Shown: piece after piece, positions 20,635 to 59,759 of the stretch | Layout of the letters: each line of letters begins with the position of its first letter | Numbering within the stretch: position 1 is the first letter of the stretch | Origin: Squalus acanthias | Taxonomy: Eukaryota | Direction: 5' to 3' | Assembly: GCA_030390025.1 (NCBI GenBank) | Contig: CM059431.1 | Coordinates: 134,170,001-134,234,000, forward strand | DNA length: 64,000 nt | Notes under the pieces: generated by a model | Told to the model about the DNA's origin: nothing | The model's database searches: none | The model's input: only the letters and a program-made list of their open reading frames with translations | Made by a program: the position numbers and the translations under genes

Positions 20635-20666
<32 letters not shown>

Positions 20667-20841
20667 TCAGCAGCAGCACCAAGGTGGGAGGGAGACCCAC
20701 AATGTTGCAACTGCAAGGGCCGTCCGTCAACGGCTGATAACAAGCCGCTTCTCGGCCCCTACTGAGGAAATGGCTTCTGGCATGGAGAACAACATGAATG
20801 AAAGCAACCCACAACCCCAAAGCCGGCCAAGGCAGCAATGA
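19600..20841 (+). CDS. Harbinger (HARBI1-like) DDE transposase; frame open, probable start ATG now TTG
   Basis: GAIDCTRV, NRKGFHSLNVQLVCD, YPGSSHDAF, LLGDKGY, RNIIEQTIGVLKQRF and CCMLHN motifs with an acidic tail. The MITE at 30023-30887 has ATGGGGGCT at the homologous position. Confidence 0.85.
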
Positions 20842-21060
20842 TTCCAAAGGCCAAACCTGTACATTTTGAATACAAAAACTTTTTTATTTTACACTCTGTG
20901 TGTGTCATTTCTTTATGACAAATTAATAGAAACAAACACAAAAAATAATTCATTAACATTACTGGTTCTCACAACCTGGAGATAATGTCCAAAGCACTAA
21001 ACAAAAGTTTGAACACGAACCTCGGCCTTTAATAAAAAATTTAACATTTCGTCACACCTC

Positions 21061-22849
21061 CTACTTTTTGCCCTTCGAGGGTGATCGCCTTCCCTTACGC
21101 ACTTCCCCCCTTCCCATCCTATTGCTTCTCCATAATGGAGCCCCAGTGGCTGCAGCAAGGCTGTTGGAAGGCTGCTCACTGTCAGAACCTGAGACTACAG
21201 ATGCCCTTGAAGGACGGCCTTGACCAGCTCTGGGCCTGGAGGGCCCGGCTGCAGACTGCACCAACTATGCATGGGCGGTAGCAGTCTGGGCTACAGGCGG
21301 TGGCAAGTGCAATGGGGAAGTGACAGTGGTGGCAGCAGGAATGCTGTCATCTTGAGAGAGGACAGCAACTCCCTGCTCAACCGACACACTGGCACTCCCA
21401 CGGGGCAGCACCTCAGCATCCGGAGCAATCTGCTGCAGCACAGATTGCTGGTCTGCTGCGGCGCGGAGAGCGCCCCGGGGAAATGTGTCCGAACCAGCGA
21501 CAATGGCAGCAGTCAGTGCTTGCGTGACCACAATCTGAGTCTGCATGAGACCAGTCTGAGATTGGATCACGGCAGCCAGTGACTGAATTGCAGCACTAAG
21601 CATTAGCGTGGCATCCACCTGTGCTACAGCAAAGTGCTCCACACTCCTTGCCAGTGCATCAATGCATTCGGGCACCCTTCCCACTGCACCCATGAGCTCA
21701 GTGTGCATGTCCACCGCCTGGGTGTTCATTTCAGTGCAGCAGGACTTGCTGGCCTACTCTCCCTCCGGGGAAAAGGCCCCCGAGCTTACCTCGCCACATC
21801 GCGTTGCTGCAGCCCGCTGGGTCCCGGAGCTTCACCCTCATCAGACCCTTTCCCCCTGCTCCCCTCCAGGGAAGATGTGGTGCCAGTGTGGGCATGGGCT
21901 TCCTCGGGAGAGGGTGGCGCTGAAGCTCCGGCTTCCTCTTCCTCCTCGCCTGCGGCTTCACTCCCATTGGCAGCTTCAGGGCCCGTCTCCTCAGCTGGTG
22001 AATCACCATCTGAAAGCAGGGAGGTACAAGAGTGGCTTTAGCGTGAGGACAGGGGGGCAGTAATGGAGGAATGAGTGGAGCGATTTAGTAAGTTGGATTG
22101 AAAGTGTAAAAGGCTGGTGTTGTGAGGGACAAGTGGAATGAGAGAGGAGAGAAAGCTGATGACCTTACCATTGCTGTCCCGAACAGGGTCGGCCTCTCCA
22201 GCGGCGACGGAACCGATCACCTGGCTTGCCACAATCCTGTGGACGCGCGCCTCAAGATCGCTGAGGGGTTGCAGCTGAGGCCGCCCTCCACCTGTCCATT
22301 GCTGCTGTCTCCTATTATGAGACAGCTTGGCCTGCAAGAAAAAGGACGGCGTCTGAATAAATATACAGCCATGGTCTTGCCAGATGTGCCTCCCATAATT
22401 GAATAGCCCTTAATGTATGCAGCCATGTGCTTGCCTGATGTGCCTCCCATAGTTGAATAGCCCTTACTGTATGCAAGGTGTGGAATGTGCGTGTGCGTTT
22501 CATGAGAGGGCCATAGGTGTTGGATGAGTGTTGGGCATTGGGGTTTTAAGACCCGCTGGCCATAGAGTGAGGTTGAGATGGAGGGATGGAGAGATATTGA
22601 AAAAAAGCCACTCACACTGACGACCCGAGTGAGGTCGTTGAACTTTTTGCGACATTGAGTATGGGTCCGGGGCACCATGCTCCTGGAGGAGACGTGCTGA
22701 GCCACCTCCCTCCACACTCTTCTGTAGTCGCGCGGCAAAGGCCTCCTGCCATTCTCAGGGAAGAGTATAGATCTGTGCTCCACCACGCCAACCAGAGCCT
22801 CCAAGGCCCGCTCGCTGAAGCGCTGAGCTCGTTCTCTCACCCTCTCCAT
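21061..22849 (-). pseudogene. Spliced Myb/SANT-like DNA-binding partner gene of the Harbinger; exon 3 disrupted
   Basis: Exon 1 22849-22616 (RFSERALEALV..W.EVA..V..R...QCRKKFNDL, gtgagt donor); exon 2 22331-22169 (TGGG motif, gtaagg donor); exon 3 from 22009 with TAA at 21786-21788 and a frame change before the 21729-21265 ORF. Confidence 0.8.
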
Positions 22850-24166
22850 AGTCCTTGGCTGGAAAATGTAATCACAGGTCTCTCCCGGTCGAGATTCAAG
22901 GCTCCAATGAGCAGTGTGCGGCTGGAGAGCAAGATCGACTCTCCCCTTTAAGAACTGGCCAGCGCCAGTGTGTCTGTGTTCCATCGCTAACTGACAGCAC
23001 CTGCGCTGCGCCCGCGCTCTGAGTTAGGGCCTCGCTCCTCGGCCTTTGCGCCTTCAGACAGGTGTGCAGTGCCTAATTTAGCGCTCCAATCAGCTCCAGG
23101 GGCGATAGAAGCCAAGTTTGCAGTCGGAGGCGATAATTAGTGCTAGGCGCTAAACTTTGCGCCCGGCCGATAATTGCGCCCCAAGCGGGGCGATACCGAA
23201 TTTCTCCCCATTGTACCAGAAAACTATTTTGAATGCACTCAAGAAATTCACTACTTTTCTGACTTTAGCTACTCTGTTCTTCCCAATCTATATGAAAATT
23301 AAAGTCTTTCATTAAAACAACTCTGCTTTTGCTATAAGCCTCTCTAATCTATGAATTAATACATTCTGCCACTTCATTGTTGCTATCAGGAGGCCTGTAG
23401 ACAACTCCCATTATAGTTTTAAGTCCTCTCTTATTCCTCAATTCTAACCATAGAGTCTCTGTTGATTGCTTTCCTATGTTGCAGTATCATGGACAGGTGT
23501 GGCTTGAATGACAAGTCAAATAATTGGTTGAATTTGAATTCAATTAACTGGTACAACTTTATGCACTACCTTCTTCTACAGACACCATTTTGCAGAATAA
23601 ATTCATTTGCTTAGGTAAGCACTTTTAACTAAGTGCTGAGCAAAAAAAGTCAAGATCACTTCATAGAAAAAAGAAAAATCTGTTTTCAAGAATCACATAG
23701 TGAATTAACAATTTCCAAATCAGGGATTCCCACATATCATTCAAAATGTATGCCACTGTCACATATATCCTACCAGGTTACACTAATAATATTTCCCTGA
23801 TGATATCAAATATCCATCATTTAATGGATACAAGTTCTGGAAAGTTTAAACCACGATATTCTCTTCTCTCTCTCTGTCTCTGTCTCCCCAAACACACACA
23901 CACAAACAGGAAAAATATTTTTAAACATTGATTTCTCATTTCTCTAGGGATGGGCAATAAATGCTGGCCTTGCCAGCGACGCCCAGATCCCATAAGCGAA
24001 TACAAAAAATATATTTTTTGTTTTAAAACAGCAGTTGCCCAATGATTCAAAATAAATTGTCTATGAAATGTGGTTATCCATTCATAATGAACAACTATGT
24101 CAGAAAGATTGCTCGGAGCAACAATGCAATCAGGATTAGGAAGGTCATTTTATTTCCATAACTACC

Positions 24167-24459
24167 ATGTTCAAGAATTTCGGAGGGGAGTTTAAAGATA
24201 TGGGAAAAGTGGGGAATGAATTTCAAGGGTATAGGAGGACTAGCAAAAGAAAAAGGTGGCAGGTTGTGGTATTTATGAGCAGTGGGAGGGAAATGAGGGG
24301 AAACAGTGGTGGTGGGCGGGGGTTATACTTTGTAGGGGTGGGGCCAAGATGTGGAAGTCGGGTACTGGGATTTAGGAGTAGTGGAGGTGGGAGCACTGAC
24401 AACCTGGGGTCTGTGACACTGGGAAGTGCATGTGATGGGTGTGTGAACATTGGGAAGGA
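24167..24459 (+). repeat. About 290-bp near-identical direct duplicate of 26040-26331
   Basis: Both start atgttcaagaatttcggagggg and end gtgaacattgggaagga; their ORF translations are nearly identical. Confidence 0.9.
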
Positions 24460-25123
24460 TTATTCAGCTCTTACCCTTGCTACTTAAATAGACACTTACA
24501 TGATGATTGGAAATTATTTTAATTATACTAGAAGATCTCCTATGGTCTTGCTAAAGACAAGTTGGAGGGAACACTGTTTGTAACATACAATGTAACATAC
24601 AATAATTATTGGGGCCACTGATTTAGTGATTGAATAAATAAAATTGCATTTTTATAATGGAGTATAAATAATGGAGGCTCAAATCCATCACTGTGTGCAT
24701 ATTTGCATGCAATGTGCTGTATGATAAAGAAAAAAAGATTAAAAATGGGATATTGGAGAATGCATCACTGCACATGTATATTCTAGGTTATGGTGAGAAT
24801 AAAAGGAATGTTGATTAAAAATAAAGAATGAAGGTAAAATGATAGATATAGAAATGAAATTAACTTGTTTGAAAAAGGTAAAGTTATATATTGAAAAGCT
24901 TTTACAAAATTACATAATTTTATGAATGATGGGAATGGAAGTTAAAATGGAAATGTTATAATCGATGAATATATTACAAATCTTACATCTGCATGTACCT
25001 CCTGTCACATTTTTCAATTGTAAGTCCCTATAATCACATTTATAATGGAAATTGCCGATATAGAGTTGCCACGCAGTAGTTACACATTCCTGCCAATAGA
25101 GATGCTGCAGTGCCAACACTGTT

Positions 25124-25296
25124 AAGAAAGAAAGATTTGCATTTATATAGCACCTTTCACAACCACCGGACGTCTCAAAGCACTTTACAGTCAATGAAGT
25201 ACTTTTTTGAAGTGGAGTCGCTGTTGCAATGTGGGAAACGCGGCAGCCAATTTGCGCACAGCAAGGTCCCACAAACAGCAATGTGATAATGACCAG
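25124..25296 (-). mobile_element. 3' fragment of a SINE with L2-type tail (SacSINE1/DeuSINE-like)
   Basis: (aaga)n-ttgcatttatatagcacctt tail shared with the L2 copies here, followed by a different body (gcggcagccaatttgcgcacagcaag). Family name is from memory. Confidence 0.55.
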
Positions 25297-26751
25297 CACA
25301 TAAATATAGTATGACAAATTTACAAAGGTACTTTCATTCATAAATATGGACATAGGAATTTGTAATGGAAATATAAATATATGGACAAAATGCAAGAGTT
25401 CAAAATAGCAATTGAATTTCACTTGACAACTACATTTGTTCACTGGAAACGCATGTGTGTGTATATATGTGCTTGTGTATATCTACACTGATATAATGTT
25501 TGTAAAAATATTTTATATAGTGTGTGTATTCAATATAATTTGGGTGGAGTATTTTGTATATATAGACATTATAAAAATATAGAATTTTATGTTTTCACTA
25601 GGGTCAGTTTGTGTGCAGGGAGGATGGAAAGTTGTGTTTATGTCAGTGAGTGTCTGACAGTGCATGTGTCATTAGACAAATGTTGGGGCATAGTGTTCAA
25701 GCGGAAGATTTGTTTTCAAAAATAATAGTCCTGTTGGATTTTGTTATGTGAGTGGATGTATGGTAGACAGAGGGAGAACATTAGAGAGTTTGGGTTGAGT
25801 GCTGGGAAAGTATAAAATGGAGGAGGAAATATGAAGAGATGCAAAGAGGGGGTAAAGTGGAAGCTTGGGTTAAGAGTTTGGTGGTGAGTGATGTGTGGAA
25901 AAGGGACTGGTAGAATGAAGTGCGAGGGCGGAGGAGAGAATTAGAATGATAAAAGAGAAAATGACAAGCAATATATATGGAAATATTTATGTACTGGCGA
26001 GGGTTGTCTTAGGGTTTGGGAGTACTAGGGACTTTCTGGATGTTCAAGAATTTCGGAGGGGAGTTTAAAGATATGGGAAAAGTGGGGAATGAGTTTCAAG
26101 GGTATAGGAGGACTAGCAAAAGAAAAAGGTGGCAGGTTGTGGTATTTATGAGCAGTGGGAGGGAAATGAGGGGAAACAGTGGTGGTGGGCGGGGGTTATA
26201 CTTTGTAGGGGTGGGGCCAAGATGTGGGAGTGGGGTACTGGGATTTAGGAGTAGTGGAGGTGGTAGCACTGACAACCTGGGGTGTGTGACACTGGGAAGT
26301 GCATGTGATGGGTGTGTGAACATTGGGAAGGAGCTCTTCAGGGTATAGGAGAAGTTAAGGAGCAGTTCTGGCAAGACAGGTGTGGAAAATGACTCAACAT
26401 TGGCTCCGAACCCCATGAAGCCGCATGGCATCAGGTCAAACATGGGCAAGGAATCCTCCTGCTGATTACCACCTATCGCCCTCAATCAGCTGATGCATCA
26501 GTACTCCTCCAGGTTGAACACCACTTCGAAGTATCACTGAGGGTAGCAAGGGCACAGAACCTACTCTGGGTGGGGGACTTCAATGTCCATCACCAAGACT
26601 GACTCGGTAGCACCACTACTGACCAAGCTGGCAGAGTCCTGAAGGACATAGCTGCCAGACTGGGCCTGCGGCAGGTGGTGAGAGGACCAACGCAAGGGAA
26701 AAACCTACTTGAACTCGTTCTCACTAATCTACCTGTCGCAGATGCACTTCT

Positions 26752-28030
26752 CATACGAACATATGAATTAGGAGCAGGAGTAGGCCACTCGGCCCCTCGA
26801 GCCTGCTCCGCCATTCAATAAGATCATGGCTGATCCGATTATTCCACATTCCCGCCTACCCCCGATAACTTTTCACCCCCTTGCTTACCAAGAATCTATC
26901 TACCTCTGCCTTAAAAATATTCAAAGACTCTGCTTCCACCGCCCTCTGAGGAGAGAGTTCCAAAGACTCACGACCTTCTGTGAGAAAATTGTTTTCCTCA
27001 TCTCTGTCTTAAATGGGCGACTCCTTATTTTTAAACAGTGACCCCTAGTTCTAGATTCTCCCACAAGAGGAAACATCCTCTCCACATCCACCCTGTCCAG
27101 ACCCCTCAGGATCTTATATGTTTCAATCAAGTCACCTCTTACTCACAGAATCCCCACAGTGCAGATAGAGGCCATTTCAGCCCATCGAGCCTGCACTGAC
27201 ACATTTCCCACCCTATCCCCGTAACCCCACGTATTTAATCCCCCCCTAACACTAAGGGTCAATTTATCACAGCCAAATCAACCTAACCCGCACATCTTTG
27301 GACTGTGGGAGGAAACCGGAGCACCCGGAGGAAACCTACGCAGACACGGGGAGAATGTGCAAACTCCACACAGACAGTTACCCGGGGCCGGATTCGAACC
27401 CGGGTCCCTGGCGCTGTGAGGCAACAGTGCTAACCACTATGCCACCGTGTTACTCTTCTAAACTCCAGCGGATACAAGCCTAGCCTGTCCAACCTTCCCT
27501 CATAAGACAACCCGCCCATTCCAGGTATTAGTCTAGTAAACCTTCTCTGAACTGCTTCCAATGCATTTACATCCTTCCTTAAATAAGGAGACCAATACTG
27601 TACACAGTACTCCAGATGTGGGTGTGACTGCCTCCTGGAATAAAGTGTCCAGGTAACTTTCCCCCTCCCTGATGCATCGCAGAGTCCGCAGCTCGGCCTC
27701 CAGCTCATCAACTCTGAGCCGAAGCTCCTCAAGCCGTAGACACTTACCGCAGACGTGTTCGTCCTGGATCACACTGGCGTCCAGGAGCTCCCACATACTG
27801 CAGTCGCAACACATCACCTGCCCTGCCATCTTTATTGAGTCTTAATTAATTTATTTTTATTAATTAATAATTAACAAACCCTACTACACCTAATAAGATT
27901 TATTACTGCTAGTAAACTAGTACTAATGAAACCTTACAATGACTAATAAATTTCCTGGGCTTTAAAAGATAAGGGAAGTGAGCAAAATACTCACGAAGCA
28001 ATCACTTACCCTTTTCCCTGTGATGTCACC
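26752..28030 (-). mobile_element. Internally deleted CR1: 5'UTR and ORF1 N-terminus joined to the ORF2 3' end and tail
   Basis: ORF1 MAGQVMCCDCSMWE..CGKCLRLEELRLRV (27829-27623) abuts PHLEYCVQYWSPYLRKD; CR1 tail at about 26752. Confidence 0.8.
27145..27449 (-). mobile_element. tRNA-derived V-SINE (HE1-like)
   Basis: Minus-strand A-box (tggcatagtgg) and B-box (ggttcgaatcc), V-domain-like ggaggaaaccggagcacccggaggaaacc, CR1-derived tail, 6-bp TSD TTACTC. Confidence 0.85.
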
Positions 28031-30022
28031 TTTTATTTTTCTCCACATGCAGAATACTCCATGACAGTATTGCTAAGAGTGTCCACCACACAGTCCTTGT
28101 GGAGACAAAGTCCCGTCTTCACACTGAGGACACCCTCCATCATGTTGTGTGGCACTACCACTATGCTAAATAGGATAGATTCAGAACTGATATAGCAACT
28201 CAAAACTGGACATCCATGAGGAGCTGTGCGACATCAGCAGCAGCAGAATTGTTTTCCACCACAATCTGTAGCCTCATAGCCTGGTATATCCTTCATTCTA
28301 CCATTACCATCAAGACAGGGGATCAATCCTGGTTTAATGAGGAGTATAGAAGAACATGCCAGGAGCAGCACCAGCCATACCTAAAAATGAGGTGCCAACC
28401 TGGTGAAGCTACAACACAGGACTACATGCATGCTAAACAGCGGAAGCAGCATGCTACAGACAGAGCTAAGCGATCCCACAAACAACGGATCAGATCAAAG
28501 CTCTGCAGTCCAGCCATATCCAGTCGTAAATGGTGGTGGACAATTAAATAACTAATGCGAGGAGAAGGCTCCATGAGCGCCCCCACACTCAATGATGGCG
28601 TAGCCCAACACGTGAGTGCAAAAATCAAGGCTGAAGCATTTGCAACCATCTTCAGCCAGAAGTGCCAAGTGGTTGATCCATCTTGGCTTCCTCCCGAGAT
28701 CTCCATTGTCACAGAAGCCAGTCTTCAGCCAATTTGATTCACTCCTCGTGATATCAAGAAACGGCTGAGCGCACTGGGTACAGCAAAGACTATGGGCCCC
28801 GACAACATCACGGCTGTAGTGCTGAAGTCTTGTGCTCCAGAACTAGCCGCGTCTCTAGCCAAGCTGTTCCAGTACAGCTACAACACTGGCATCTACCCGA
28901 TAAAGAGGAAAATTGCCCAGGTATGCCCTGTGGTGGAGCCCAGCACGTGAGTGCAAAAGACAAGGCTGAAGCATACGCAACCCTTTCAGCCAGAAGTGGC
29001 AAGTGGATTATCCATCTCGGCCTCCTCCTGCTGTCCAAACCATCACAGAAGCCAGTCATCAGCCAATTTGATTCACACCACATGATATCAAGAAACAGCT
29101 GAGCGCACTGGATACAGCAAAGAATCCTAGCTGTCGTGCTGAAGACTTGTGCTCCAGAACTAGCCGCTCCTCTAGCCAAGCTGTTCCAGTACAGCTACAA
29201 CATTGGCATCTACCCGACAATGTGAAAAATTGCCCAGGAATGTCCTGCCCACAAGAAGCAGGGCAAATCTAATCCGGCCAATTACTGCCCCATCAGTCTA
29301 CTCTCAATCATCAGCAAAGTGATGGAAGGTGTCATCGACAGTGCTATCAAGCAGCACTTACTCACCAATAACCTGCTTACCAATGCTCAGTTTGGGTTCC
29401 GCCAGGACCACTCAGCCCCAGACCTCATTACAGCCTTGGTCCAAACATGCAAAACAGCTGAATTCCAGAGATGAGGTGAGAGCGACTGCCCTTGACATCA
29501 AGTCAGCATTTGACCAAGTGTGGCATCAAGGAGCCCTAGTAAAATTGAAGTCAATGGGAATTATGGGGAAAACTCTCCACTGGCTGGAGTCATACCTAGC
29601 ACAAAGGAAGATGGTTGTGGTTGTTGGAGCCCACTCATCTCAGGCCCAGGACATCGCTGCAGGAGTTCCTCAGGGCAGCGTCCTAGGCCCAACGATCTTC
29701 AGCCGTTTCATCAATGGCCTTCCCTCATCGGAAGATCAGAAGAGCGGATGTTCGACGATGATTGCACAGTGTTCAGTTCCATTTGCAATTCCTCAGATAA
29801 TGAAGCAGTCTATGCCTGCATGCAGCAAGACCTGGATGACATTCAGGCTTGGGCTGATAAGTGGCAAGTAACATTTATGCCACACAAGTGTAGGGTTTGG
29901 CCGGTGGCAACATCAGTGGATGCATGTGCCTCAAGGATTTTTGGACTTTTAAAATGGATATGTATCCTTTTAAAATGGAGACACACGTGGGCTGCGTTTT
30001 AAAAATGGAGTTTGGACTTTTG

Positions 30023-30887
30023 GGGGGAAAAATTCAGTATCGCCCCGTTTGGGGCACCATTATCGGCCGTGCGCAAAGTTTAGCGCCTGGCGCTAATTAT
30101 CGCCTCCGACTGCAAACTTTACTTTTATCGCCCCTGGAGGTGATTGGAGCGCTAAATCAGGCGCTACACATCTGTCTTAAGGCGCAAAGGCCGAGGAGCG
30201 AGGTGCTACCTCAGAGCGCTGGCGAAGCTCATGTGATGTCAGTCAGCAATGGAACACACACACAATGGCCCCGGCCAGTTCTTAAAGGGGAGGGTCGCTC
30301 TTGCTCTACATCCACACCCTGCTCATTGCAGCCTTGAATCTCGGCCTGGAGAGACCTGCACATCATATCTGTTGGAAAGAACAATGGAGAGGCCCAGGGA
30401 AAGAGCTCAGACGGCAGCCCCCATATTCTCCTCTAAATCGCTGCAAGGAAGATCAAACCAGAAAGAACCTGCAAAGTGCTGCTCAGTACCCAAAACTCCT
30501 CAACACAGCTTTGAATATCTCCTGCAGTCTCTCCCTCTCACTCAGAATGCGTGGCGCAAAAATTTCGCCGACAAAAAAAGACAGGAAGTGGTCGCCTTTC
30601 AATAGCGCTCCCCCAGTCCCTTCCTGACTGCAAAACGCTCCCCTCAACCTGTCGTTGCTAGCGGCAGGCAGTAAGACAGGGGGTGCCACTCAATATCCGG
30701 TCCGGGGCGCTACATTCTCGACTGGCACAGGAGATCGTGGCGGTAGTGTTTAGCGCCGCCGCAAAATGTCTAGTTAATTTCGTGAGCGGCGCAAAGATCG
30801 CCGCGCACAGGCACTAGTTGCTTTGCACCCCATTGGCGCCCACTTAAGGCGCTAACGGGAGGCGCAATCCAACTGAATTTTTCCCCC
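30023..30887 (-). mobile_element. Non-autonomous Harbinger derivative (865 bp), copy 2
   Basis: TIR GGGGGAAAAATTCAGT at both ends; TSD TTG; homologous to 7541-8435. Confidence 0.9.
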
Positions 30888-31572
30888 TTGGACTTTAAAA
30901 GGGACTGCCTGTTGGTTTTTGTGAAGATAGCAGGAACTGTCTGTTTTTTGGGCTGCCATGGGACCTGTCTCAACGCTGACATCATGAAAGGCAGGAGCCT
31001 TTTCATATTCGAACTTGTGAGATTTGGGGAAAACCACCCTTTGTCCATGGAGCCGGGATGTCTGGATGGACAATGAGGTTTGGAGGCCAAAAGTAACACC
31101 TCTGGATTCTTTCAATGAAGGAGCAGTCAAGAACTTAACAAACAGTTAGCAATTCGAGTACTGCTCATCTACAATAATGGCTTAACATTATTTTCTTCAA
31201 GATGACCAATCCAGGACATGAGACATCACCAGGTAAACCAACTAGCATCTCTGCGACCATGGTAACCAGGAATTGCCCAGCAAGTTTTGTGTATTGCACG
31301 GGGTATAAACATGCTGAACTTTGGGGATGCAGAGCTTCTTGGTTTGTTGGTTGTTGTCTGCCTGCTTCTCTCTACCATCTGTAACGGGGTTCTCCGCATA
31401 ACTACGCGTCCGCCAACTCTCCAGTAACGCCCGAAGTTAGTGCCTCGCTGTACCGCCTGAACGCAACTCTCTAGGCCTCATCGCATGCCTCTGTTAGGCA
31501 CGGTTTTGTCTCCGGAGTCGAACGGAGCCGGGACCGCGTGAATCAACGACAAGGGCTGGTAATTATATCCAG

Positions 31573-31956
31573 AATTGAGAGGTCGCACAACACCAGGTTA
31601 TAGTCCAACAGTTTTATTTGAAATCACAAGCTTTCGGAGCTATCGATTTGCTCCTTCCTCAGGTGAAGTAAATTAGATACAGAATCTCCAAAGCATATAT
31701 AGATGGAAAACAAAGCATGTGTACTTTACAATTGCAGACCAAACTTATTGGTCTGCAATTGTAAAGTACACATGCTTTGTTTTCCATCTATATATGCTTT
31801 GGAGATTCTGTATCTAATTTACTTCACCTGAGGAAGGAGCAAATCGATAGCTCCGAAAGCTTGTGATTTCAAATAAAACTGTTGGACTATAACCTGGTGT
31901 TGTGCGACCTCTCAATTTTGTCCACCCCAGTCCAACACCGGCATCTCCGCATCATG
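31573..31956. mobile_element. Penelope-like inverted pLTR insertion: perfect 170-bp hairpin plus 39-bp tail
   Basis: 31573-31742 is the exact reverse complement of 31748-31917 (loop actta); 12-bp TSD aattatatccag. Confidence 0.88.
31824..31866 (+). ncRNA. Putative minimal type I hammerhead ribozyme (mirror copy on the minus strand at 31624-31666)
   Basis: tcac-CTGAGGA-a-GGAGC-aaatcgata-GCTCC-GAAA-gc-TT-gtga: stem I tcac/gtga, stem II, and palindromic aagctt in place of stem III. Confidence 0.7.
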
Positions 31957-32719
31957 AATTATATCCAGCACACACCTCTAGAAATCCCCAAGACCGCCCG
32001 CGTGTTTTGCTGCTGAGGAACTGCAAGTGTCCAAGACGCAGGCTAGCACATGTGTGTGTGTGAGGAGGCTTCCAAGTATGGGTTCTGACCAAACCGGGAG
32101 AGGGGTTTAGTTAGAAGGGTTTTTGCCTTATCTAGGCTTAGATTCTGGGAAGGGGTTGGTTCGGCGTAACCAACAGGGTGGATATTTTAGTCTAAAGTTA
32201 TAAGCTAGTGTCCATGGTCATCTACTCGTTCTGCCGTAAGTGAGAGGAGTAGGGATTGTCGTTTTTGTGAGTGTAATAAAAGGAATCGATCTTTGACCAA
32301 CCTGAACCGTTTTGTTGCAGGCATTAGACTCTCAGATTTATAATTAATAAGATTAGCTAGAGTGGACAAGAGAGACTCATTAAGCCAAGGCCCTACAATA
32401 TCATTGTTCATATCTCGGTCTGGTCCAAGTGTTGATCAACATCCACTGATTTCCAAATTTGTCATTCCCACCATCCACACTCAAACCCTTCCAACCCCAC
32501 TTCCTTCTGTATCCGTCTTGGTAAAAAAAAAACTCTCCCTCAAGTCACTTATAACTGCAATTCCAAATTCCCAACTATGGCTTTCCATTCACCTCAACAC
32601 TTCTATACCCGTCAATTTGCAACCACTCCCTCACCCCCTCTTTTGATGCCCTTGTTCCGAACAAAACATTGACTCTCTCCCAACCCAGTCATACCCTAAG
32701 ATGAGCCTTACGATGAGAG

Positions 32720-34842
32720 AAGGTCATTGATGAAGCAGCTGAAGATGGTTGGGCCTAGGACACTGCCCTGAGGAACTCCTGCAGTGATGTCCTGGGGCTG
32801 AGATGATTGGCCTCCAACAACCACAACCATCTTCCTTAGTGCTAGGTATGATTCTACCCAGTGGAGTTCCTTTTTTTATTCGATGTGGGCGTCGCTGGCA
32901 AGGCCAGCATTTATTGCCCATCCCTAGTTGCCCTTGAGAAGGTGGTGGTGAGCTGCCTTCTTGAACTGCTGCAGTCTGTGTGGTGTAAGTACTCCCACAG
33001 TGCTGTTAGGGAGGAAGTTCCAGGATTTTAACCCAGCGACGATGAAGGAACGGCAATATACTTCCAAGTCAGGATTGTGTGTGACTTGGAGGGGAACTTT
33101 CAGGTGATGGGGTTCCCATGCGCCTGCTGCACTTGTCCTTCTAGGTGGTAGAGGTTGCGGATTTGGGAGGTGTTGCCGAAGAAGCCTTGGCGAGTTGCTG
33201 CAGTGCATTTGTAGATGGTACACACTGCAACCACGGTACGCCAGTAGTGGAGGGAGTGAATGTTTAAGGTGGTGGATGGGGATCCAATCAAGCGGGTTGC
33301 TTTGTCCTGGATGGTGTCGAGCTTCTTGAGTGTTGTTGAAGCTGCACTAATCCAGGCAAGTGGAGAGTATTCCATCACACTCCTGACTCGTGCCATGCAG
33401 AATACCCAGCCTCTGACCCACTCTTGTTGCCACAGTATCACAGTATTTATGTTGCTGGTCCAGTTAAGTTTCTGGTCAATGGTGACCCCAGGATGTTGAT
33501 GGTGGGGAATTCGGCGATGGTAATGCCGTTGAATGTCATGGGGAGGTGATTAGACTCTCACTTGTTGGAGATAGTCATTGCCTTGCACTTGTGTGGCACG
33601 AATGTTACTTGCCACTTATCAGCCCAAGCCTGAATGTTGTCCAGGTCTTGCTGCATGCGGGCATGGACTGCTTCATTTTCTAAGGAGCTGCGAATTGAAC
33701 TGAACACTGTACAATCATCAGTGAACATCCGCACTTCTGACCTTATGATGGAGGGAAGGTCATTGATGAAGCAGCTGAAGAGGGTTGGGCCTAGGACACT
33801 GCCCTGAGGAACTCCTGCAGCGATGTCCTGGGGCTGAGAAGATTGACCTCCAACTATCATAACCATCTTCCTTTGTGCTAGGTATGACTGCAGCCAGTAG
33901 ACTGTTTCTCTTCTGATTCCCATTGACTTCAATATTACTAGGGCTGCTTGATGCCACACTCGGTCAAATGCTGCCTAGATGTCAAGGGCAGTCGCTCTCA
34001 CCTCACCTCTGGAATTCAGCTCTTTTGTCCATGTTTGGAACAAGGCTGTAATGAGGTCTGGAGCTGAGTGGTCCTGGCAGAACCCAAACTGAGCATCGGT
34101 GAGCAGGTTATTGGTGAGGAAGTACCACTTGATAGCACTGTCGATGACACCTTCCATCACTGTGCTGATGATTGAGAGAAGGCTGATGGGGTGTTAATTG
34201 GCTGGATTGGATTTAGAATCATAGAGTGGTTACAGCACGGAAGAAGGCCATTGGGCCCATCAAGCTCATGCCAGCTCTCTGCAAGAGCACTTCAGCTTGT
34301 CCCACTCCCCCACCCTTCTCCCCTAGCCCAGCAAATTTCTTTCCTTCAAATACTTATCCAACTCCCTTTTGAAAGCTATGATTCGTCCTGCTTTTCGTGG
34401 ACAGGACATACCTGGGCAGTTTTCCATATTGTTGGGTAGATGCCAGTGTTGTAGCTGTACTGGAACAGCTTGGCTAGAGTTGCTGCTAGTTCTGGAGCAC
34501 AAGTCTTCAGCACGACTGCCAGAATGTTGTCGGGTCTTGGCTGTATCCAGGGCGCTCAGCCGTTTCTTGATATCACGTGGAGTGAATTGAATTGACTGAA
34601 GACTGGCTTCTGTGATGGTGGGGAACTCAGGAGGAGGCCGAGATGGATCATCCACTCGGCACTTATGGCTGAAGATGGTTGCAAACGCTTCAGCCTTGTG
34701 TTTTACACCCGCGTGCTAGGCTCTGCTGTCATTGAGGATGGGGATATTCATGGAGCCTCCTCCTCCGGTGAGTTGTTTAATTCTCCACCACCATTCACGA
34801 CTGGATGTGACAGGACTGCAGAGCTTTGATCTGATCCGTTGA
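32720..34842 (-). mobile_element. Family B LINE fragments with a short CR1 3' insertion (about 34214-34381)
   Basis: GVPQGSVLGP, FTDD and WADKWQVTF motifs; family 3' tail at about 32875-32925. Confidence 0.8.
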
Positions 34843-36740
34843 GTATATTCAAGGCTGAGATACGTAGATTTCTGGACGCTAGGGGAATCAAGGGATATGG
34901 AGATTGGGAAAGTGGAGTTGAGGTTGAAGATCAGCTAAGATTTAATTAATGGCGGAGCAGAATCGAGGGGCATATGGCCTACTCCTGCTCCTAATTTTTA
35001 TGTTCTTATGTTCCTATATTCTTATGTCCAAAAATCTACATATCTCAGCCTTGAATATACTCAACGACTGAGCATCCACAGCTCTGTCGGGTAGAGAATT
35101 CCAAAGATTCACAACCCTCTGAGTGAAGAAATTCCTCTTCATCTCAGTCTTAAAATGCTGACCCCTTATCCTGAGACTATGCCCCCTAGTTCTAGACACT
35201 CCAACCAGGGAAAACAACCTCTCAGCATCTACCCTGTCACTCCCCCTCGGAATCTTATTTGTTTCAATGAGATCACCTCTCATTCTTCTAAACGCCAGAG
35301 AGTATAGGCCCATTCTACTCAATCTCTCCTCACAGGACAACCCTCTCATCCCAGGGATCAATCTAGTGAACCTTTGTTGCACCACCACTAAGGTAAGTAT
35401 ATCCTTCCTTAGATAAGGAGACCAAAACTGTGCACAGTACTCCAGGTGTGGTCTCACCAAAGCCCTGTACAACTGTAGGAAGTACTCCTTACTCTTGTAC
35501 TCCAACTCCCTTGCAAAAAGACCAACATGCCATTTGCCTTCCTAATTGCTCGCTGTACCTGCATGCTAACTCTCTGTGCTTCCTGCACTAGGACGCGTAA
35601 ATCTCTCTCAACACCAACATTTAATAGTTTCTCACCATTTAAAAAATATTGGGGGAGAAAATCGGCATCGCCCTGTTTGGGGTGCAATTATCGGCCGGGC
35701 ACAAAGTTTCGCGCCTGGCGCTAATTATCGCCTCCGACTGCAAACTTGGCTTCTATCGCCCCTGGAGGTGATTGGAGCGCTAAATCAGGTGCTACACACC
35801 TCTCTTAAAGTGCTAACGCCGAGGAGCGAGGTACTAACTCAGAGCGCTGGCGAACCTCATGTGATGTCAGTCAGCAATGGAACACAGACACACTGGCGCC
35901 GGCCATTTCCTAAAGGGGAGGGTCCATCTTGCTCTCCATCTACACCCTGCTCATTGCAGCCTTGAACCTCAGCCTGGAGAGACCTGTACATCAATTCTGC
36001 TGGAAAGAACAATGGAGAGTCCCAGGAAAAGAGCTCAGAGTGCAGCCCCGGTAGTCTCTTCTAAATTGATGCAAGGAAGGACAAATCAAAATTAACCTGC
36101 AAAGTGCAGCTCAATACCCAAAGCTCCTTCACACAGTGTTGAGTCTCTCCAGAAGTCTCTCTCTCTCTCTCAGAATATGTGGTTCAAAAATGTCACCGAC
36201 AAAAAAAGTCAGGAAGTGGTCGCCTTTAAATAGCGCTCCCCTAGTCCCTTCCCGACTGCAAAACGTTCCCCTCAACCTGTCATTGCTAGAGGCAGGCAGT
36301 AAGGCAGGGGGTGCCACTCAATATCCGGTCCAGGGCACTACCGGGGCATTGCACGCTCGACTGACGACACGATCTGAGGGCGCAGGAGATCGTGGCGGTA
36401 GTGTTTATCACCGCCACAAAATTTCTGGTCAATTTCGTGAGCGGCGCAACCATCGCCGCGCCCGGGCGCTAGTTGCTTTGCGACCCATTAGCACTCTCTT
36501 AAAGTGCTAACGGGAGGCGCAAAGCAACCAAATTTTTCCCCCATTCTGTTTTCCTATTGTTCCTACCAAAGTGAATAACCTCACATTTCCCCACATTATA
36601 CTCCATCTGCCACCTTATTGCCCACTTAACCTGTCTATATCTTTTGCAGGCTCTTTGTGTCCTCCTCACAGCTTACTTTCCCACCTAGCTTTGCATCGTC
36701 AGCAAACTTGGATACATTACACTTGGTCCCTTCATCTACC
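34842..36740. mobile_element. Two CR1 3' pieces tail to tail (+ 34842-35013; - about 35015-36740)
   Basis: (ttcttatg)n tail at about 35000; ORF 35014-35505 is a CR1 ORF2 C-terminus; the minus copy continues after the MITE. Confidence 0.75.
35651..36542 (-). mobile_element. Non-autonomous Harbinger derivative (892 bp), copy 3
   Basis: TIRs GGGGGAGAAAAT / rc GGGGGAAAAATT; TSD ATT; CR1 is continuous across it. Confidence 0.9.
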
Positions 36741-37349
36741 TTTTTTAGCCAGTACATAGCAAGCCGAACAAGAGAGGAGGCGGTTCAGGACTTAGTTTTA
36801 GGGAATCAAGATGGGCAGACCAAAGGGGTATCAGTGAGAGACCATTTTGGTGGTAGCGATTATAATTCAGTTAGATTTAGCGCAGTTATGGAAAAGGATG
36901 AAGATAGATCAGGAGTAAAAGTTCTCAATCGGGGAAAGGCCAATAATACTAAGCTGAGATGTGATTTAGCAAAAGTGGACTGGAAACAGTTACTTGAAGT
37001 TAAATCAGTGTCAGAGCAGTGGGAGGCATTCAAGCAGGAGATGGTGAGGGTTCAGACTAAGTATGTTCCCACAAAGAAAAATGGTGGGACTCCCAAATCT
37101 AGAGCCCCCTGCAGGTCAAGGAGCATACGGGGTAGGCTAAGGCAAAAAAAGGAAGCTTATGGCAGCTACCAAGCGCTAAATGCTGCAGAAAGCCTAGAGG
37201 AGTATAGAAAGTGCAGGGGTGAAATTAAAAAGGAAATTAGGAAAGGAAATAGAGGGCATGAAAAAAGATTGGCAAGTAAAATCAAGGAAAACCCAAAGAT
37301 GTATTACAAATACATAAAGAGCAAGAGGATAACTAAAGAAAGAGTAGGG

Positions 37350-40300
37350 TGTGGCGGATCGCCACCTAAACGGGCATTATCCACTTTTCCGTCCGTGGAC
37401 AAATATCGAGCACCTTCCCTTTAAGGCACCTTACCTTTAAGGCAGGAGTGGGTGGGGCCTCAGGATTTTTCAGAGAATTCTAAGAGCAGTCGGTTCAGCC
37501 ATTTTGTACCATGCAGTTATTAAAAAAGTCTCTTGTTTTCCACACATGGATTCAGCCTTAATTCGTGTTTCGCGGCAGCCTCAACATTGGTGACCCCGAC
37601 GCTCAGAACGTATTCCGAGCACTGCAATGGCGGACACGAACGCAGTTTCCGTGAAACTGCCGGAGTTTTGGGAAAACCAGCCCGAAGCCTGGTTTCTCCA
37701 AGCTGAATCTCGCTTCCGGCTGCGAAACATCACCACAGATGGGACGAAGTACGACTATCTCGTCACATCACTCGGTAGTGCCGCAGTTTCGAAGGTTTGG
37801 ACAGCGCTGCAGAACCCACCAGAGGAAGGCAAGTACGCACATCTCAAGACAGCGCTCCTTAAAAAATTTACGGCCTCGGCATATCAGCGAAACTGCCACC
37901 TCCTCGACCTTCCAGGCCTCGGTGACGCCTCACCGTCAGACCTCCTCTCCCACATGCTCTCCCTCACCGACGAGAGCCCACCCGGATCCCTCTTCCGCAC
38001 GCTGTTCAACCGCCAGCTCCCTCTCAGCATCCGCCCAGCGATCGTGGCGTCCGGCCTCACGAACCTGGAAGCCCTGGCCGATGAGGCCGACAAGCTGCTG
38101 TCCGCTCACTCCAGCCGCGACGTCACTCCGGACCTGGCAGCCAATGCCTGGGCGCGCGCCTCACCGGCCACCACGCGGCCACAAGGGCCTGCCACCAGGC
38201 CCACGGGGCCTTCACGCCCCACTAACCTGGGCCACTGCTACTACCACGCACGGTTCGGCGCCAGGGCACAACGGTGCACACCTCCCTGCTCTTTCAAGTT
38301 CGCCCCCGTACCAGCCCCCGCGATGGCCGTGGGCCACGCGGGCTCCCTGCTGTTCGTCACGGATGACAAAACCGGCCGCCGGTTCCTGTGCGACACTGGG
38401 GCTCAGCACAGCATCATCCCTCCCTCGACATCCAAAAGGGCGAACGAGGACCGGCGCTGGCTGCTGCTAACAGCTCGGAAATCTGGATGTATGGCACCCG
38501 GACAGTCACCCTCGACCTCGCTGGTCGCCGCTACCGATGGGAGTTCATCACTGCCAAGGTGCTCTCCCCTCTCATCGGCGCAGATTTCCTGTGCGCCCAC
38601 GGCCTACTGGTAGACATCCCCCGTCACCGCCTCGTGGACGTGAACACCATGTCCCCCATCCTGGGCGTCATGGCCCCCCGTCAACCCGCCGACATGGCGT
38701 CACAGTGCCACGCCCGGGCCACGGATGACTACTCGGCACTCCTGGACGAATTCCCGGCCCTTACCAATCCGACCTTCTCCGCGGAGGCCGCCAAACACGG
38801 GGTGGAACACTTCATCCCCAGCACAGGCCCCCCAGTGTACGCCCACACCCGCAGGCTGGACCCGACCAAACTGGAGATCGCGCGGACCAAGTTTGCCACC
38901 ATGGAACAGCTCGGCATCATCCGCCGCTCCAACAGTCCCTGGGCCTCCCCACTCCACATCGCCCCCAAACCAGGCGGAGGATGGCGCCCCTGCAGGGATT
39001 ACCGGCGCTTCAACGACGCCAACACCCATGATTGGTACCCCGTGCCGCACATTCAGGACTTCACGGCTAGACTGGCCGGCCGCTCAGTCTTTTCCACGGT
39101 CGACCTGGTGCGCGGCTACCACCAAGTCCCCGTCCACCCCGCGGACGTCCCCAAGACGGCTGTAATCACCCCCTTCGGCCTGTTCAAGTTCCTGCGGATG
39201 CCCTTCGGCCTCAAAAACGCGGCCCAGGCATTCCAACGGCTCATGGACTCGGTCCTTCGGGACCTGAAGTTCCTGTTCGTCTACCTGGATGACATCCTGG
39301 TAGCCAGTTCCTCCAAGCAAGAACACCTCGAACACCTTTGCATCCTGTTCGGGCGCCTCAGCGACCACGGGTTCATCCTCAGCCCAGCCAAATGCCAGTG
39401 CGGCCTGGACAAGATCGACTTCCTCGGCCACCACATCACCCATGCTGGGGCCATTCCCCTGCCCACCAAGGTGCAGGCCGTCCAACAATTTCCCCGCCCC
39501 ACCACCATCAAAGGCCTCCAGGAGTTCCTCGGGATGGTGAATTTCTTCATCCCCAAAGCGGCGTCCCTCATGAGGCCCCTGTATGAAGCCCTCCGGGGCA
39601 GGAGCGGCAAGATGGCGGTCGAATGGACGGCAGACGCGTCCGCCACCTTTGATTCCACCAAGACCGCGCTCGCCAACGCCACCCTGCTCGCGCACCCACG
39701 GCCCAATGCCAGGGTAGCGCTCACCACGGACGCCTCCGACCACGCGGTCGGCGCCGTGTATGAGCAGTGGGTCGACGGCGCCTGGCAACCACTTGCCTTC
39801 TTCAGCCGCCAACTACGCCCCCCAGAGGTCAAGTACAGCACCTTCGACCGCGAGCTCCTCGCGCTGTTCCTGGCGGTCCGCCATTTCCAGTTTTTGCTTG
39901 AAGGCCACCCCTTCACTGCGTTTGTCGACCACAAGCCCCTGACATTCGCAATGGCAAAGACAACCGACCCCTGGTCCACCAGGCAGCAGCGCCAGCTCAC
40001 GGCAGTGTCCGAGTTCACCACGGACATCCAACACGTCTCCGGCCGAGACAATGTGGTAGCCGACTGCCTCTCCCGCCCCGCCATCTACGCCGCACACCTG
40101 GCAGTCGACTACGCTCAACTCGCAGCAGACCAGATCACCGACCCTGATCTGCTCTCCGCACCCACCAACCTACCAGGGCTACGCCTGGCCGACGTCGCCT
40201 GTGGCCCGACCGCAGTCATGGTCAAGTGCGACATATCCCTATGTCAACCTCGGTTCGTCGTCCCAGCGTCCTGGCGCCGCCGGGTATTCGACATTTTCCA

Positions 40301-41675
40301 CAACCTCTCCCACCCCGGCGCCCGCACATCCATCAAATTGGTAGCCAACCGCTTTGTCTGGCGCGGCCTTCACAAGGATGTGCGTACTTGGGCCAACTCC
40401 TGCCTAGCCTGCCAACGGGCCAAGGTACAGCAACACACGAAAGCACCCCTCGAGGAGTTTACCGTCCCCTCGCGGAGATTCGACCACATCCACGTGGACA
40501 TCGTCGGGCCCCTGCCGCCGTCACAAGGCCACACGCACTTGCTGACCATCGTTGACCGCACCACGCGCTGGCCCGAGGCAATTCCACTGACCTCTACCAC
40601 CACCGCCGACATCGCCAGAGCCTTCGTCAGCACCTGGGTCGCACGGTTCGGCGTCCCCTCCGACATGACGTCGGACAGAGGTCCGCAATTTACCTCTGAA
40701 CTCTGGACCGCCGTCGCACGCAATCTCTAGGTGACCATTCACCGCACAACAGCATACCACCCCCAAACCAACGGACTGTGTGAGCGGTTCCACAGATCCT
40801 TGAAGGCATTTCTTCGAGCCAGCCTCCAGGACGGCGCCTGGACCGACCGACTTCCGTGGGTCCTCCTCGGCCTGCGCACCGCGGTTAAAGAAGACCTCCA
40901 TGCATCGGCAGCAGAGCTCGTGTACGGTCAGCCGCTGCGCGTACCCGGCGAGTTCCTGCCCACCGCCACGACACCCTGGTCAGCCGACCAGCAACGCCAC
41001 GACTTCGCCTCACCGACGCTGCAGTTCGCCCCGGTGCCCATTGCCCGACACAGCGAATCCACCTCACACATCCCACTAAGCCTGCACCAGGCACGGTTTG
41101 TTTTCGTCCGGAACGACGCCCACCGCGGACCCCTTCAACCCCTGTACGACAGGCCCTACAAGGTGCTACAGGCTGGGGACAAATTTTTCACCCTGCAAGT
41201 GGGCGACAGGACCGAAAAAGTGTCGGTTGACCGACTCAAGCCAGCACACTCGGAGCCCGGTGAGCAGGTCCCTGTAGCTCATCCACGCGGCCGACCTGCC
41301 CTCAAGCCGGTTCACCCGGCTGCTCCACGCCCGGCCGTTCCACGTCCACCGGCGTCCTACAAGAGCCGCTCCGGCCGGCCCATCAGACCGCCGCACCGTC
41401 TCGTCCACACCTCCTAAGTGGATTCTGGGGGGAGCTGTGTGGCGGATCGCCACCTAAACGGGCATTATCCACTTTTCAGTCCAGGGACAAATATCGAGCA
41501 CCTTCCCTTTAAGGCACCTTACCTTTAAGGCAGGAGTGGGCGGGGCCTCAGGATTTTTCCAGAGAATTCTGGGAGCAGTCTGTTCAGCCATTTTGTACCA
41601 TGCAGTTATTAAAAAAGTCTCTTGTTTTCCACACATGGATTCAGCTTTAATTTGTGTTTCGCGGTAGCCTCAACA
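37350..41675 (+). mobile_element. Full-length Ty3/Gypsy LTR retrotransposon, CsRn1-like
   Basis: LTRs 37350-37586 and 41438-41675 (TG..CA; about 10 substitutions and 1 indel by eye); 4-bp TSD AGGG; PBS TGGTGACCCCGACG at 37588-37601 (tRNA-Trp); G-run PPT before the 3' LTR; Gag CYYHARFGARAQRCTPPC motif. Confidence 0.95.
37627..41417 (+). pseudogene. gag-pol (PR, RT, RNase H, IN) of the CsRn1-like Gypsy, disrupted
   Basis: CDTGA protease, YLDD, TDAS, HPG..C..C, DIVGP, SDRG and ERFH motifs. Frameshift inside the protease (about 38420-38430) and TAG at 40728-40730. Confidence 0.9.
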
Positions 41676-42517
41676 AGGGCCTATTAGAGACCAAAAAGGA
41701 ATCTTGTGTGTGGAGGCGGAAGACATGGGCTTGCAACGTAATGAATACTTTGCATCTGTCTTCACAAAAGAGAGGGACGATGCAGACATTGTTGTTAAGG
41801 AGGAGTATGAAATATTAGATGAGATAAACATAGTGAAAGAGGAAGTATTAAGGGGTTTAGCATCTTTGAAAGTAGATAAATCACCAGAACTGGATGAAAT
41901 GTATCCCATGCTGTTAAGAGAAGGGAGGAAAGAGCAGAGGCTCTGACCATCACTTTTCAATCCTCTCTGGCTACATGTGTGGTGCCAGAGGACTGGAGGT
42001 CTGCTAACAATTTACCGCTGTTTAAAAATGGAGAAAGGAATAGACCGAGTAATTACAGGCCAGTCAGCCTAACCTCGGTGGTGGGCAAATTGTTGGAAAA
42101 AGTTCTGAGGGACAGTATTAATCATCATTTAAAAGACACGGATTAATCAAGGTCAGTCAGCATGGATTTGTTAAGGGAAGATCATGTCTGACTAGATTGA
42201 ATATTTTGAGATGGTAACAAGCAGGGTAGTGCGTTTGATGTAGTCTACATGGATTTTAGCAAGGCTTTTGACAAGGCCCCACATGGCAGACTGGTCAGAA
42301 AAGTAAAAGCCCATGGGATCCAAGGGAAAGTGGCAAGTTGGATCCAAAATTGGCTCAGTGGCAGGAAGCAAAGGGTAATGGTCGATGGGTATCTTTGTGA
42401 CTGGAAGGCTGTTTCCAGTGGGGTTCCGCAGAGCTCAGTGCTAGGTCCCTTGCTTTTTGTGGTATACATCAATGATTTAGACTTCAATGTAGGAGGAATG
42501 ATTAAGAAGTTTGCAGA

Positions 42518-47130: not shown

Positions 47131-47544
47131 GATTTTTGATTTACCAAATATACTCTGCATCGCTTCACTCCGTTAAGCCAATGGGACACAGAGTGTATCT
47201 GGCACACAACCATATATCAGCAGATCTGGCTAGAACACATCAAGAACTATCGGGCCCAGTCTCCTCTGCCAAAAATACTCCAGGATCATCTTATAGAGCA
47301 AAGATAACCCCCAGCTTCTTTTCTTTACTACCAGCCATCTCCTTAAACCTCTCTCCCCCGCTGTTTCAATGCTCATTAACAACAAGAGCAAAGAGCTCAT
47401 GGAATTCTTCGGCATAACGACCAGCTGTTCAGATGCCTCTGCTTTGATCCCCCTTCCCCTTAACCACCACGCCAAACCTGCCACTCCCTAGCCCTGAACC
47501 TAAGCCTTTCTCCAGTTTCCCACCCATCTCCCCTCATGCCCTCA

Positions 47545-59673: not shown

Positions 59674-59759
59674 TTGGGTTATAATAAACTTGAATAAAAA
59701 GGAACAAACCTATATTTGTGCTTTTCATTTCTCAGGCGCTGAACATTATATATCTGTGG

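What the first reader, a model, noticed from the sequence alone, without database searches (positions are those of the whole stretch)
31573..31956. Perfect 170-bp hairpin with a hammerhead motif on each strand inside a probable host intron
Seen: mismatch-free 170-bp arms, 5-nt loop, 39-bp unpaired tail, 12-bp TSD and a CUGAGGA/GAAA hammerhead core with palindromic AAGCUU. Known: Penelope-like elements form inverted pLTR structures with a short tail and carry minimal hammerheads proposed to cleave as dimers. Inference: a very young insertion; either transcription direction, including the DZIP1 pre-mRNA if it spans this site, would contain one ribozyme plus its antisense, giving long dsRNA (ADAR/Dicer substrate) that would sequester the ribozyme. 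The core has an extra A before stem II.
Basis: partly seen in the sequence, partly recalled or inferred. Interest (0 to 1): 0.7.

Follow-up and report, generated by a model that had tools for sequence, protein, structure and literature searches.

The report
Head-to-head Penelope stub in shark intron
The hairpin is real but ordinary: it is one of many near-identical, mirror-image stubs left by a young Penelope-type jumping gene in a shark genome, likely inside a DZIP1 intron, and its two tiny ribozyme motifs are predicted to be zipped shut in the host gene's RNA.

Summary
Observation confirmed: 170-bp perfect arms, 5-nt loop, 39-nt tail, 12-bp TSD and one minimal hammerhead (min-HHR) per strand. 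Both arms match, letter for letter, the pseudo-LTR of a full-length 3,141-bp Penelope-like element with an intact 892-aa RT/GIY-YIG ORF (Neptune-type linker). The genome holds 2,461 exact copies of the 42-nt hammerhead. Of 75 sampled insertions, 38 are head-to-head and 53 have 11-14-bp TSDs. This layout and the 'extra A' are both described in print for PLEs. The stub sits in an LTR-like repeat within a ~51-kb interval between consecutive DZIP1 coding exons (minus strand). In read-through RNA of either direction the antisense arm is made first, and forcing the ribozyme fold costs 74 kcal/mol, so it is predicted silent. One addition: family 5' ends pile up at an Inr-like A 32 nt below a TATA-like box, and this copy keeps both motifs on both arms, so RNAs started there would carry a free hammerhead. 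Cleavage, expression, editing and polymorphism were not shown. The scan noted the same kind of stub before in other sharks and elsewhere in this genome. New member of a known kind; low interest.

The parts
31561..31572 (.). Left target-site duplication (12 bp)
   Evidence: single copy at empty sites of the host repeat
31573..31742 (-). Inverted 5'-truncated pLTR copy (element positions -206 to -37, A of ORF ATG = 0), no tail
   Evidence: exact match to full-length unit in L032
31624..31666 (-). Minimal type-I hammerhead motif, in the sense of the DZIP1 pre-mRNA; predicted cut between 31628 and 31627
   Evidence: mirror of + copy
31669..31701 (-). TATA-like box (31701-31694) and Inr-like A (31669); inferred element start site, pointing leftwards
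   Evidence: 5'-end pile-up of family copies at -133
31743..31744 (.). 2-nt junction (AC) matching neither arm
31745..31917 (+). Sense 5'-truncated pLTR copy (element -209 to -37)
   Evidence: exact match to full-length unit
31789..31821 (+). TATA-like box (31789-31796) and Inr-like A (31821); inferred element start site, pointing rightwards
31824..31866 (+). Minimal type-I hammerhead motif (stem I 4 bp, stem II 5 bp, extra A, no stem III, palindromic AAGCUU); predicted cut after 31862
   Evidence: 2,461 exact 42-nt copies in genome
31918..31956 (+). 39-nt one-sided tail, ending in the ATG of the element's ORF
31957..31968 (.). Right target-site duplication (12 bp)
29889..32316 (+). Older LTR-like repeat that hosts the insertion (begins TGTA, AATAAA near its end, about 87-96% to other copies, carries a separate insert at about 30024-30887, stops short of the family's 3' end)
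13485..64000 (-). Inferred DZIP1 intron (runs to about window-equivalent 64,694) between exons for aa 1-180 and aa 180-208

Best explanation
This is a young, doubly 5'-truncated, head-to-head insertion of an endonuclease-bearing Penelope-like retroelement (Neptune-type linker) that likely lies in a DZIP1 intron, and its two hammerhead motifs are predicted to be locked in a 170-bp duplex in the host pre-mRNA, so it most likely does nothing beyond adding an intronic dsRNA. Shown: both arms are exact pieces of the element's pLTR; they end at the family's two fixed 3' end points (about -37 and +2), which leaves the 39-nt tail on one side; a 12-bp AT-rich target was duplicated; the copy has no ORF. 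Inferred: the element protein nicked both strands about 12 bp apart, primed two cDNAs from two adjacent internal start sites on element RNA (as shown in vitro for the anole element PAc), both stopped about 210 nt upstream, and the two 5' ends were joined with 2 extra bases. Because both arms reach past the inferred start site at -133, the template was likely the downstream pLTR of a read-through transcript. Predicted: in either read-through direction the antisense arm is transcribed first, so the ribozyme emerges next to its complement.
For: Exact identity of both arms to a full-length unit with an 892-aa ORF; RVT_1 hit; YIDD, GTAMG, CX4CxxC and VVY..YIG motifs; many homologues carry PF01541. 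40 of the 40 scored full-length hits, the window's own included, are 100% identical to the 209-nt arm plus tail; 2,461 exact hammerhead 42-mers. Of 75 insertions on contig C1, 38 head-to-head, 35 of those 38 with a one-sided tail, 25 with both arms spanning the hammerhead, 53 of 75 with an 11-14-bp TSD, 12 bp modal; 23 head-to-head and 0 tail-to-tail pairs among the first 100 listed matches. 3' ends cluster in two groups, about -39 to -29 and -3 to +11. Stem II pair probability about 1e-22 and 74 kcal/mol cost to force stems I+II in both directions. Layout described in PMC8557442, PMC3846280, PMC2377424; tail = sequence between two RT start sites in PMC11167929; min-HHR monomers inactive in PMC4209133 and protein-assisted in PMC11167929.
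Against: No RNA from this locus was seen; the RNA-like runs are contigs dominated by other copies. The two-cDNA route is inferred from end positions; a fold-back or template-switch route from one cDNA is not excluded (self-priming is argued in PMC3846280). Folding is equilibrium modelling without proteins. Both arms keep TATA/Inr-like motifs, so the copy need not be transcriptionally inert.
Confidence: 0.9

Rival explanations
1. Same origin, but the stub is a working divergent promoter: each arm starts RNA at its Inr-like A, giving transcripts that begin with an unsequestered hammerhead, one of them in the DZIP1 sense direction inside the intron.
For: 14 of 121 arms end exactly at -133 and 33 of 121 at -135 to -129, against 11 at -150 to -136; 5 of 11 unselected bystander insertions also have an arm starting at -128 to -134; TATA-like box at -165; stem II probability 0.95 (+) and 0.89 (-) for RNA folded from that A; TATA plus Inr-like motifs were described in an Adineta pLTR (PMC3846280).
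Against: Only about 75 nt upstream of the site are kept; young TEs are usually silenced (recalled); D. virilis Penelope uses a TATA-less internal promoter (PMC2377424); stem I probability is only about 0.2; monomeric min-HHRs did not cleave (PMC4209133) and position 17 is U, a poor cleavage base (recalled). The pile-up could also be RT stalling at a structured or protein-bound site.
Confidence: 0.12
2. The hammerhead cuts the DZIP1 pre-mRNA and acts as a regulatory or mutagenic switch.
For: An intact core lies in the DZIP1 sense orientation at 31666-31624.
Against: Its complement is transcribed about 175 nt earlier and costs 74 kcal/mol to displace; no stem III; no second sense copy nearby for a dimer; site about 18 kb from the nearest exon.
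Confidence: 0.03
3. The palindrome is an assembly artefact (fold-back read) or a MITE/miRNA-type hairpin.
For: Perfect symmetry; no contig in four public runs bridges the tail-flank junction, which the tool says proves nothing; Rfam miRNA models score below their cut-offs.
Against: Different flanks on both sides that rejoin into the host repeat with one TSD copy; one-sided tail; 38 of 75 family insertions have the same build at varied lengths.
Confidence: 0.03

Closest known systems
Inverted-pLTR insertions of EN+ Penelope-like elements (D. virilis Penelope; Adineta vaga Pen2a/Pen2; PMC3846280, PMC8557442, PMC2377424)
   Same: Head-to-head 5'-truncated copies, 30-40-bp tail on one side, TSD, partial tandems with pLTRs elsewhere in the family, TATA/Inr-like motifs in the pLTR (Adineta).
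   Different: Shark family; this copy has lost the whole ORF; tail ends at the ATG instead of inside the ORF; TSD mostly 11-14 bp against 8-10 bp in the Adineta examples.
Minimal type-I hammerheads of metazoan PLEs (Cervera and De la Pena 2014, PMC4209133)
   Same: Intact C3-A9 and G12-A15.1 core, extra nucleotide between 9 and 10.1, G10.1-C11.1, 4-bp helix I, no helix III, palindromic 15.2-16.2; opposite-strand pairs 100-700 bp apart are reported there too.
   Different: Helix II is 5 bp (7-8 bp in Schistosoma); position 17 is U; the sections read do not treat sharks.
PAc (Poseidon of Anolis carolinensis; Frangieh et al. 2024, PMC11167929)
   Same: Two adjacent 3' end points that define the tail; AT-rich target (this TSD begins AATT; sampled TSDs 72% AT).
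   Different: PAc is Penelope/Poseidon clade, its HHR overlaps the start codon and its RT start sites lie 111-118 nt inside the ORF; here the HHR lies 87-130 nt upstream of the ATG and the ORF has the Neptune/Nematis Zn-finger-like linker.
Non-LTR retrozymes (bioRxiv 10.64898/2026.07.22.740005)
   Same: Short non-autonomous HHR-bearing sequences derived from PLE pLTRs.
   Different: Retrozymes are defined there as tandem repeats with at least two consecutive HHR units; this is an inverted pair with a TSD.

Membership tests
EN+ Penelope-like element | Single ORF with RT and C-terminal GIY-YIG endonuclease linked to this repeat | tested here: met
   892-aa ORF starts at the ATG that ends the tail; RVT_1 E 2.6e-8; no GIY-YIG Pfam hit on the protein itself, but VVY..YIG motif at about 790-807 and PF01541 on many homologues
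EN+ Penelope-like element | Tandem or partial-tandem copies forming pseudo-LTRs | tested here: met
   3,141-bp tandem unit with 462 nt between ORFs in L032
EN+ Penelope-like element | Inverted 5'-truncated copy at the 5' end and 30-40-bp tail on one side | tested here: met
   This copy; 38 of 75 head-to-head, 35 of 38 with one-sided tail
EN+ Penelope-like element | Target-site duplication | tested here: met
   12 bp, single at empty sites; 53 of 75 with 11-14 bp
Neptune/Nematis clades | CX2-5CxxC motif between RT and EN | tested here: met
   CHGKLCKTC at 753; definition from PMC8557442 passages
Neptune clade | RT phylogeny with reference Neptune elements | not tested
   No named reference PLE proteins came from the tools
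PLE minimal hammerhead | Conserved core, extra base between 9 and 10.1, G10.1-C11.1, palindromic 15.2-16.2, helices I and II | tested here: met
   Sequence and local fold (fold z only -1.4 to -1.7); features from PMC4209133
PLE minimal hammerhead | Self-cleavage as dimer or with element protein | not testable with these tools
   Needs an assay; the AAGCUU self-duplex is predicted at -6.5 kcal/mol, but the lowest-energy dimer swaps stem II instead
Rfam hammerhead families | Covariance-model match | tested here: not met
   No hammerhead among 6 matches in the window stretch or 4 in the full-length pLTR
Non-LTR retrozyme | At least two consecutive tandem units with HHR | tested here: not met
   Units are inverted, not tandem
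miRNA precursor | Rfam family match at gathering score | tested here: not met
   MIR447 101 of 200 bits, MIR5649 74 of 100, pairing without sequence match

The most novel reading that the evidence does not exclude
Head-to-head stubs that reach past the element's start site are ready-made divergent promoters: this one would fire into the DZIP1 intron in the gene's own direction, making RNAs that begin with a free hammerhead which the element's protein, supplied by many intact young copies, could activate in trans. The family's 5'-end pile-up would also place the hammerhead in the first 45 nt of the element's transcript, as a decapping or leader-trimming device.
Probability: 0.12. Interest if true: 0.5.

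Novelty: new member of a known kind. Interest (0 to 1): 0.14.

Why it matters
As a locus it matters little: it is one of an estimated several hundred two-hammerhead stubs in this genome (23 of 75 sampled insertions carry the exact motif on both arms; 2,461 exact matches in all; extrapolation from contig C1 only). The family is more useful than the copy. It is very young, has intact ORFs, and its many near-identical insertions record RT start points, the likely transcription start and inversion junctions, which makes it a good natural data set for the still unresolved PLE transposition cycle and the role of PLE hammerheads.

Tried and rejected
Rfam search for a hammerhead: none; expected for a motif without stem III. 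miRNA and snoRNA hits: below cut-off, rejected. Presence/absence from public runs: no contig bridged the tail-flank junction in X1, X4 (one sample), X3 (about 55% read) or X6, and nothing covered 31967-31998 at 99% likeness; in X1 a 713-nt contig lay on 32314-32732 only with its letters 294-713, with 5 other letters and 1 gap. These fit an absent insertion or a different haplotype but are holes in repeat-rich contigs and are not counted as evidence; only one arm was laid each time. Expression and editing: runs X15 and X16 are only guessed to be RNA and are contigs pooled over all copies; no A>G differences were listed, which says nothing about this locus. An exact empty-site probe found 0 matches in the assembly. 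A search with the 3' 64 nt alone, meant to give a sample not selected on the hammerhead, returned nothing because the words are too common. In vivo cleavage signature: 2 of 121 arms begin at -93 to -88 (cut site -92/-91), the second window stub begins at about -90 on both arms by BLAST (-86 by exact match), and one arm ends at -88; the sample was selected on an intact hammerhead, so this is inconclusive. Cap-derived G at the -133 ends: seen in a few junctions but confounded by the other arm; not counted. A splice acceptor as cause of the -133 pile-up was considered and rejected: no AG there and no constant upstream exon in the junctions. No paper on these stubs in sharks came up in four searches; most subscription papers and Repbase are not searchable here, and no supplements were read.

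Full report
Observation. The structure is exactly as described. Arms 31573-31742 and 31748-31917 pair for 170 bp without mismatch around the loop ACTTA; a 39-nt tail follows the right arm; AATTATATCCAG flanks both ends. The fold is far beyond chance (-339.4 kcal/mol, 0 of 100 shuffles as good). A CUGAGGA...GAAA core occurs once per strand. The local fold gives a 4-bp stem I and a 5-bp stem II with no stem III (z only -1.4 to -1.7 for the two short fragments, +0.7 for the 128-nt one). Rfam finds no hammerhead.

What it is. The 209-nt arm plus tail has 762 first-look candidates in the genome, and all 40 that were scored are 100% identical over the full length, the window's own included. In tandem copies the sequence runs straight into an 892-aa ORF whose ATG is the last three bases of the tail. 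The repeat unit is 3,141 bp with 462 nt between ORFs; a second tandem locus, L031, holds 479-bp pieces and no ORF of 200 aa. The protein has an RVT_1 domain, YIDD and GTAMG motifs, a CX4CxxC linker and a VVY..YIG endonuclease motif. Pfam gave no GIY-YIG hit on the protein itself, but many homologues carry PF01541 and the closest named ones are shark proteins at 80-93% identity. The linker marks the Neptune/Nematis type according to PMC8557442 (passages); no tree was built. Both arms match the full-length unit letter for letter, so the insertion is very young. The sense arm spans element positions -209 to +2 and the antisense arm -206 to -37 (A of ATG = 0); two bases, AC, match neither.

Is the layout special? 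No. The 42-nt hammerhead has 2,461 exact matches. I fetched all 75 insertions behind the first 100 listed matches, all on contig C1. Of these, 38 are head-to-head, 35 of the 38 have a tail on one side, 25 have both arms spanning the hammerhead, and 53 of 75 have an 11-14-bp TSD with 12 bp the commonest; 14 had none found. Among the 100 listed matches 23 pairs are head-to-head and none tail-to-tail. The 30 loci show the same pattern at longer lengths. Inverted truncated copies with a 30-40-bp one-sided tail are described as typical of EN+ PLEs (PMC8557442, PMC3846280, PMC2377424; passages). [quoted passage not shown]

Setting. The stub interrupts an older repeat that starts with TGTA at 29889 and is matched to 32316; other copies are about 87-96% alike and carry the 12-mer once. 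Its TGTA start, AATAAA and a TACA seen after the matching 3' part in one copy (L130) make it LTR-like; its class was not tested further. A Dzip-like_N exon lies just beyond the window on the minus strand, closest to shark DZIP1 proteins at 79-93%. Further exons follow collinearly at 13484-13398 and 10051-9920 and in the stretches left of the window, with GT after the first exon and AG before the next. The hairpin therefore likely lies in an intron of about 51 kb, 18 kb from the nearer exon. No spliced read was seen.

How it likely arose. Family 3' ends fall in two groups, about -39 to -29 and -3 to +11 (BLAST ends, a few bases loose). For the anole element PAc, the protein nicks both strands at AT-rich sites and starts reverse transcription at two adjacent internal sites, and the tail is the sequence between them (PMC11167929, parts 1-2 of 4 read). 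The simplest reading is two cDNAs, one primed at each nick from one of the two start points, both cut short and joined at their 5' ends. This step is inferred; self-priming on one template, argued in PMC3846280, is not excluded.

What it likely does. In read-through RNA of either direction the antisense arm comes first. Stem II pairs have probability about 1e-22 and forcing stems I and II costs 74 kcal/mol. A single min-HHR showed no cleavage and dimers only low cleavage (PMC4209133); the PAc ribozyme needed protein (PMC11167929). So cleavage of DZIP1 pre-mRNA is unlikely. A 170-bp intronic duplex is a plausible ADAR substrate by analogy with inverted Alu pairs (established knowledge; seen as a listing only), but nothing here tests it.

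One addition. Family 5' ends pile up at -133: 14 of 121 arms end exactly there and 33 of 121 at -135 to -129, against 11 at -150 to -136 (binomial p 5e-9, overstated because paired arms are not independent and the sample was selected on the hammerhead). Five of 11 unselected bystander insertions also have an arm starting at -128 to -134. The base is the A of an Inr-like TTACTTC, 32 nt below a TATA-like box at -165, three bases before stem I. It is likely the element's transcription start, although RT stalling is a rival. This copy reaches further upstream, so both arms keep the two motifs, pointing outward at 31821 (+) and 31669 (-). RNA folded from those points forms stem II with probability 0.95 and 0.89 and stem I with about 0.2. 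That is the only route by which these hammerheads could be free, and it is untested. Earlier scan notes on other sharks pointed to the RNA leader and to family end positions and prompted this test.

Results that gave nothing. Public runs could not settle polymorphism, expression or editing; an unselected sample of 5' ends could not be drawn; the signature of in vivo cleavage is inconclusive. The retrozyme preprint (passages) defines its elements as tandem arrays, which this is not.

Verdict. Real, correctly read, and ordinary: a new member of a known kind. Interest 0.14.

Noticed in passing
window 15670-15824: Second, shorter stub of the same family: 52-bp perfect arms, tail to the ATG, duplicated TATATTGGAACAT on both sides; both arms begin at about -90, next to the predicted hammerhead cut site, and lack the ribozyme.
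   Followed up: partly
family-wide, L047-L121: 5' ends pile up at an Inr-like A at -133 below a TATA-like box at -165, placing the hammerhead at the very start of the likely transcript.
   Followed up: partly
window 29889-32316: LTR-like repeat of about 1.15 kb or more (334-353 first-look candidates) inserted into a LINE RT remnant; it carries a separate insert with inverted ends at about 30024-30887, also seen in L130, and stops about 100 nt short of the family's 3' end.
   Followed up: partly
window 32314-32732: In run X1 a 713-nt contig lies here only with its letters 294-713, as if that sample had other unique DNA where the window has the LTR-like repeat.
   Followed up: no
window 19492-20841 (+) and 22217-23023 (-): Convergent DDE_Tnp_4 transposase and Myb/SANT ORFs, a pairing recalled as typical of PIF/Harbinger transposons.
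   Followed up: no
window 37594-41417 (+), 42593-45169 (+), 51296-56771 (-): Long ORFs of LTR-retrotransposon type (DUF7041, RT, RNase H, integrase; protease) and an 858-aa APE-RT LINE ORF, all within the inferred DZIP1 intron; a 438-aa RT ORF at 53647-54963 (+) lies inside the second LTR element.
   Followed up: no
L031 (G000:C3:111973500-111983400): Three 479-bp 3' pieces of the element spaced 3,204 bp apart with no long ORF, probably carried in a larger tandem repeat.
   Followed up: no
window 32711-32836 and 32879-33000: Very high-copy repeats by contig depth, with an 11-bp inverted pair at 32741-32751/32824-32834.
   Followed up: no
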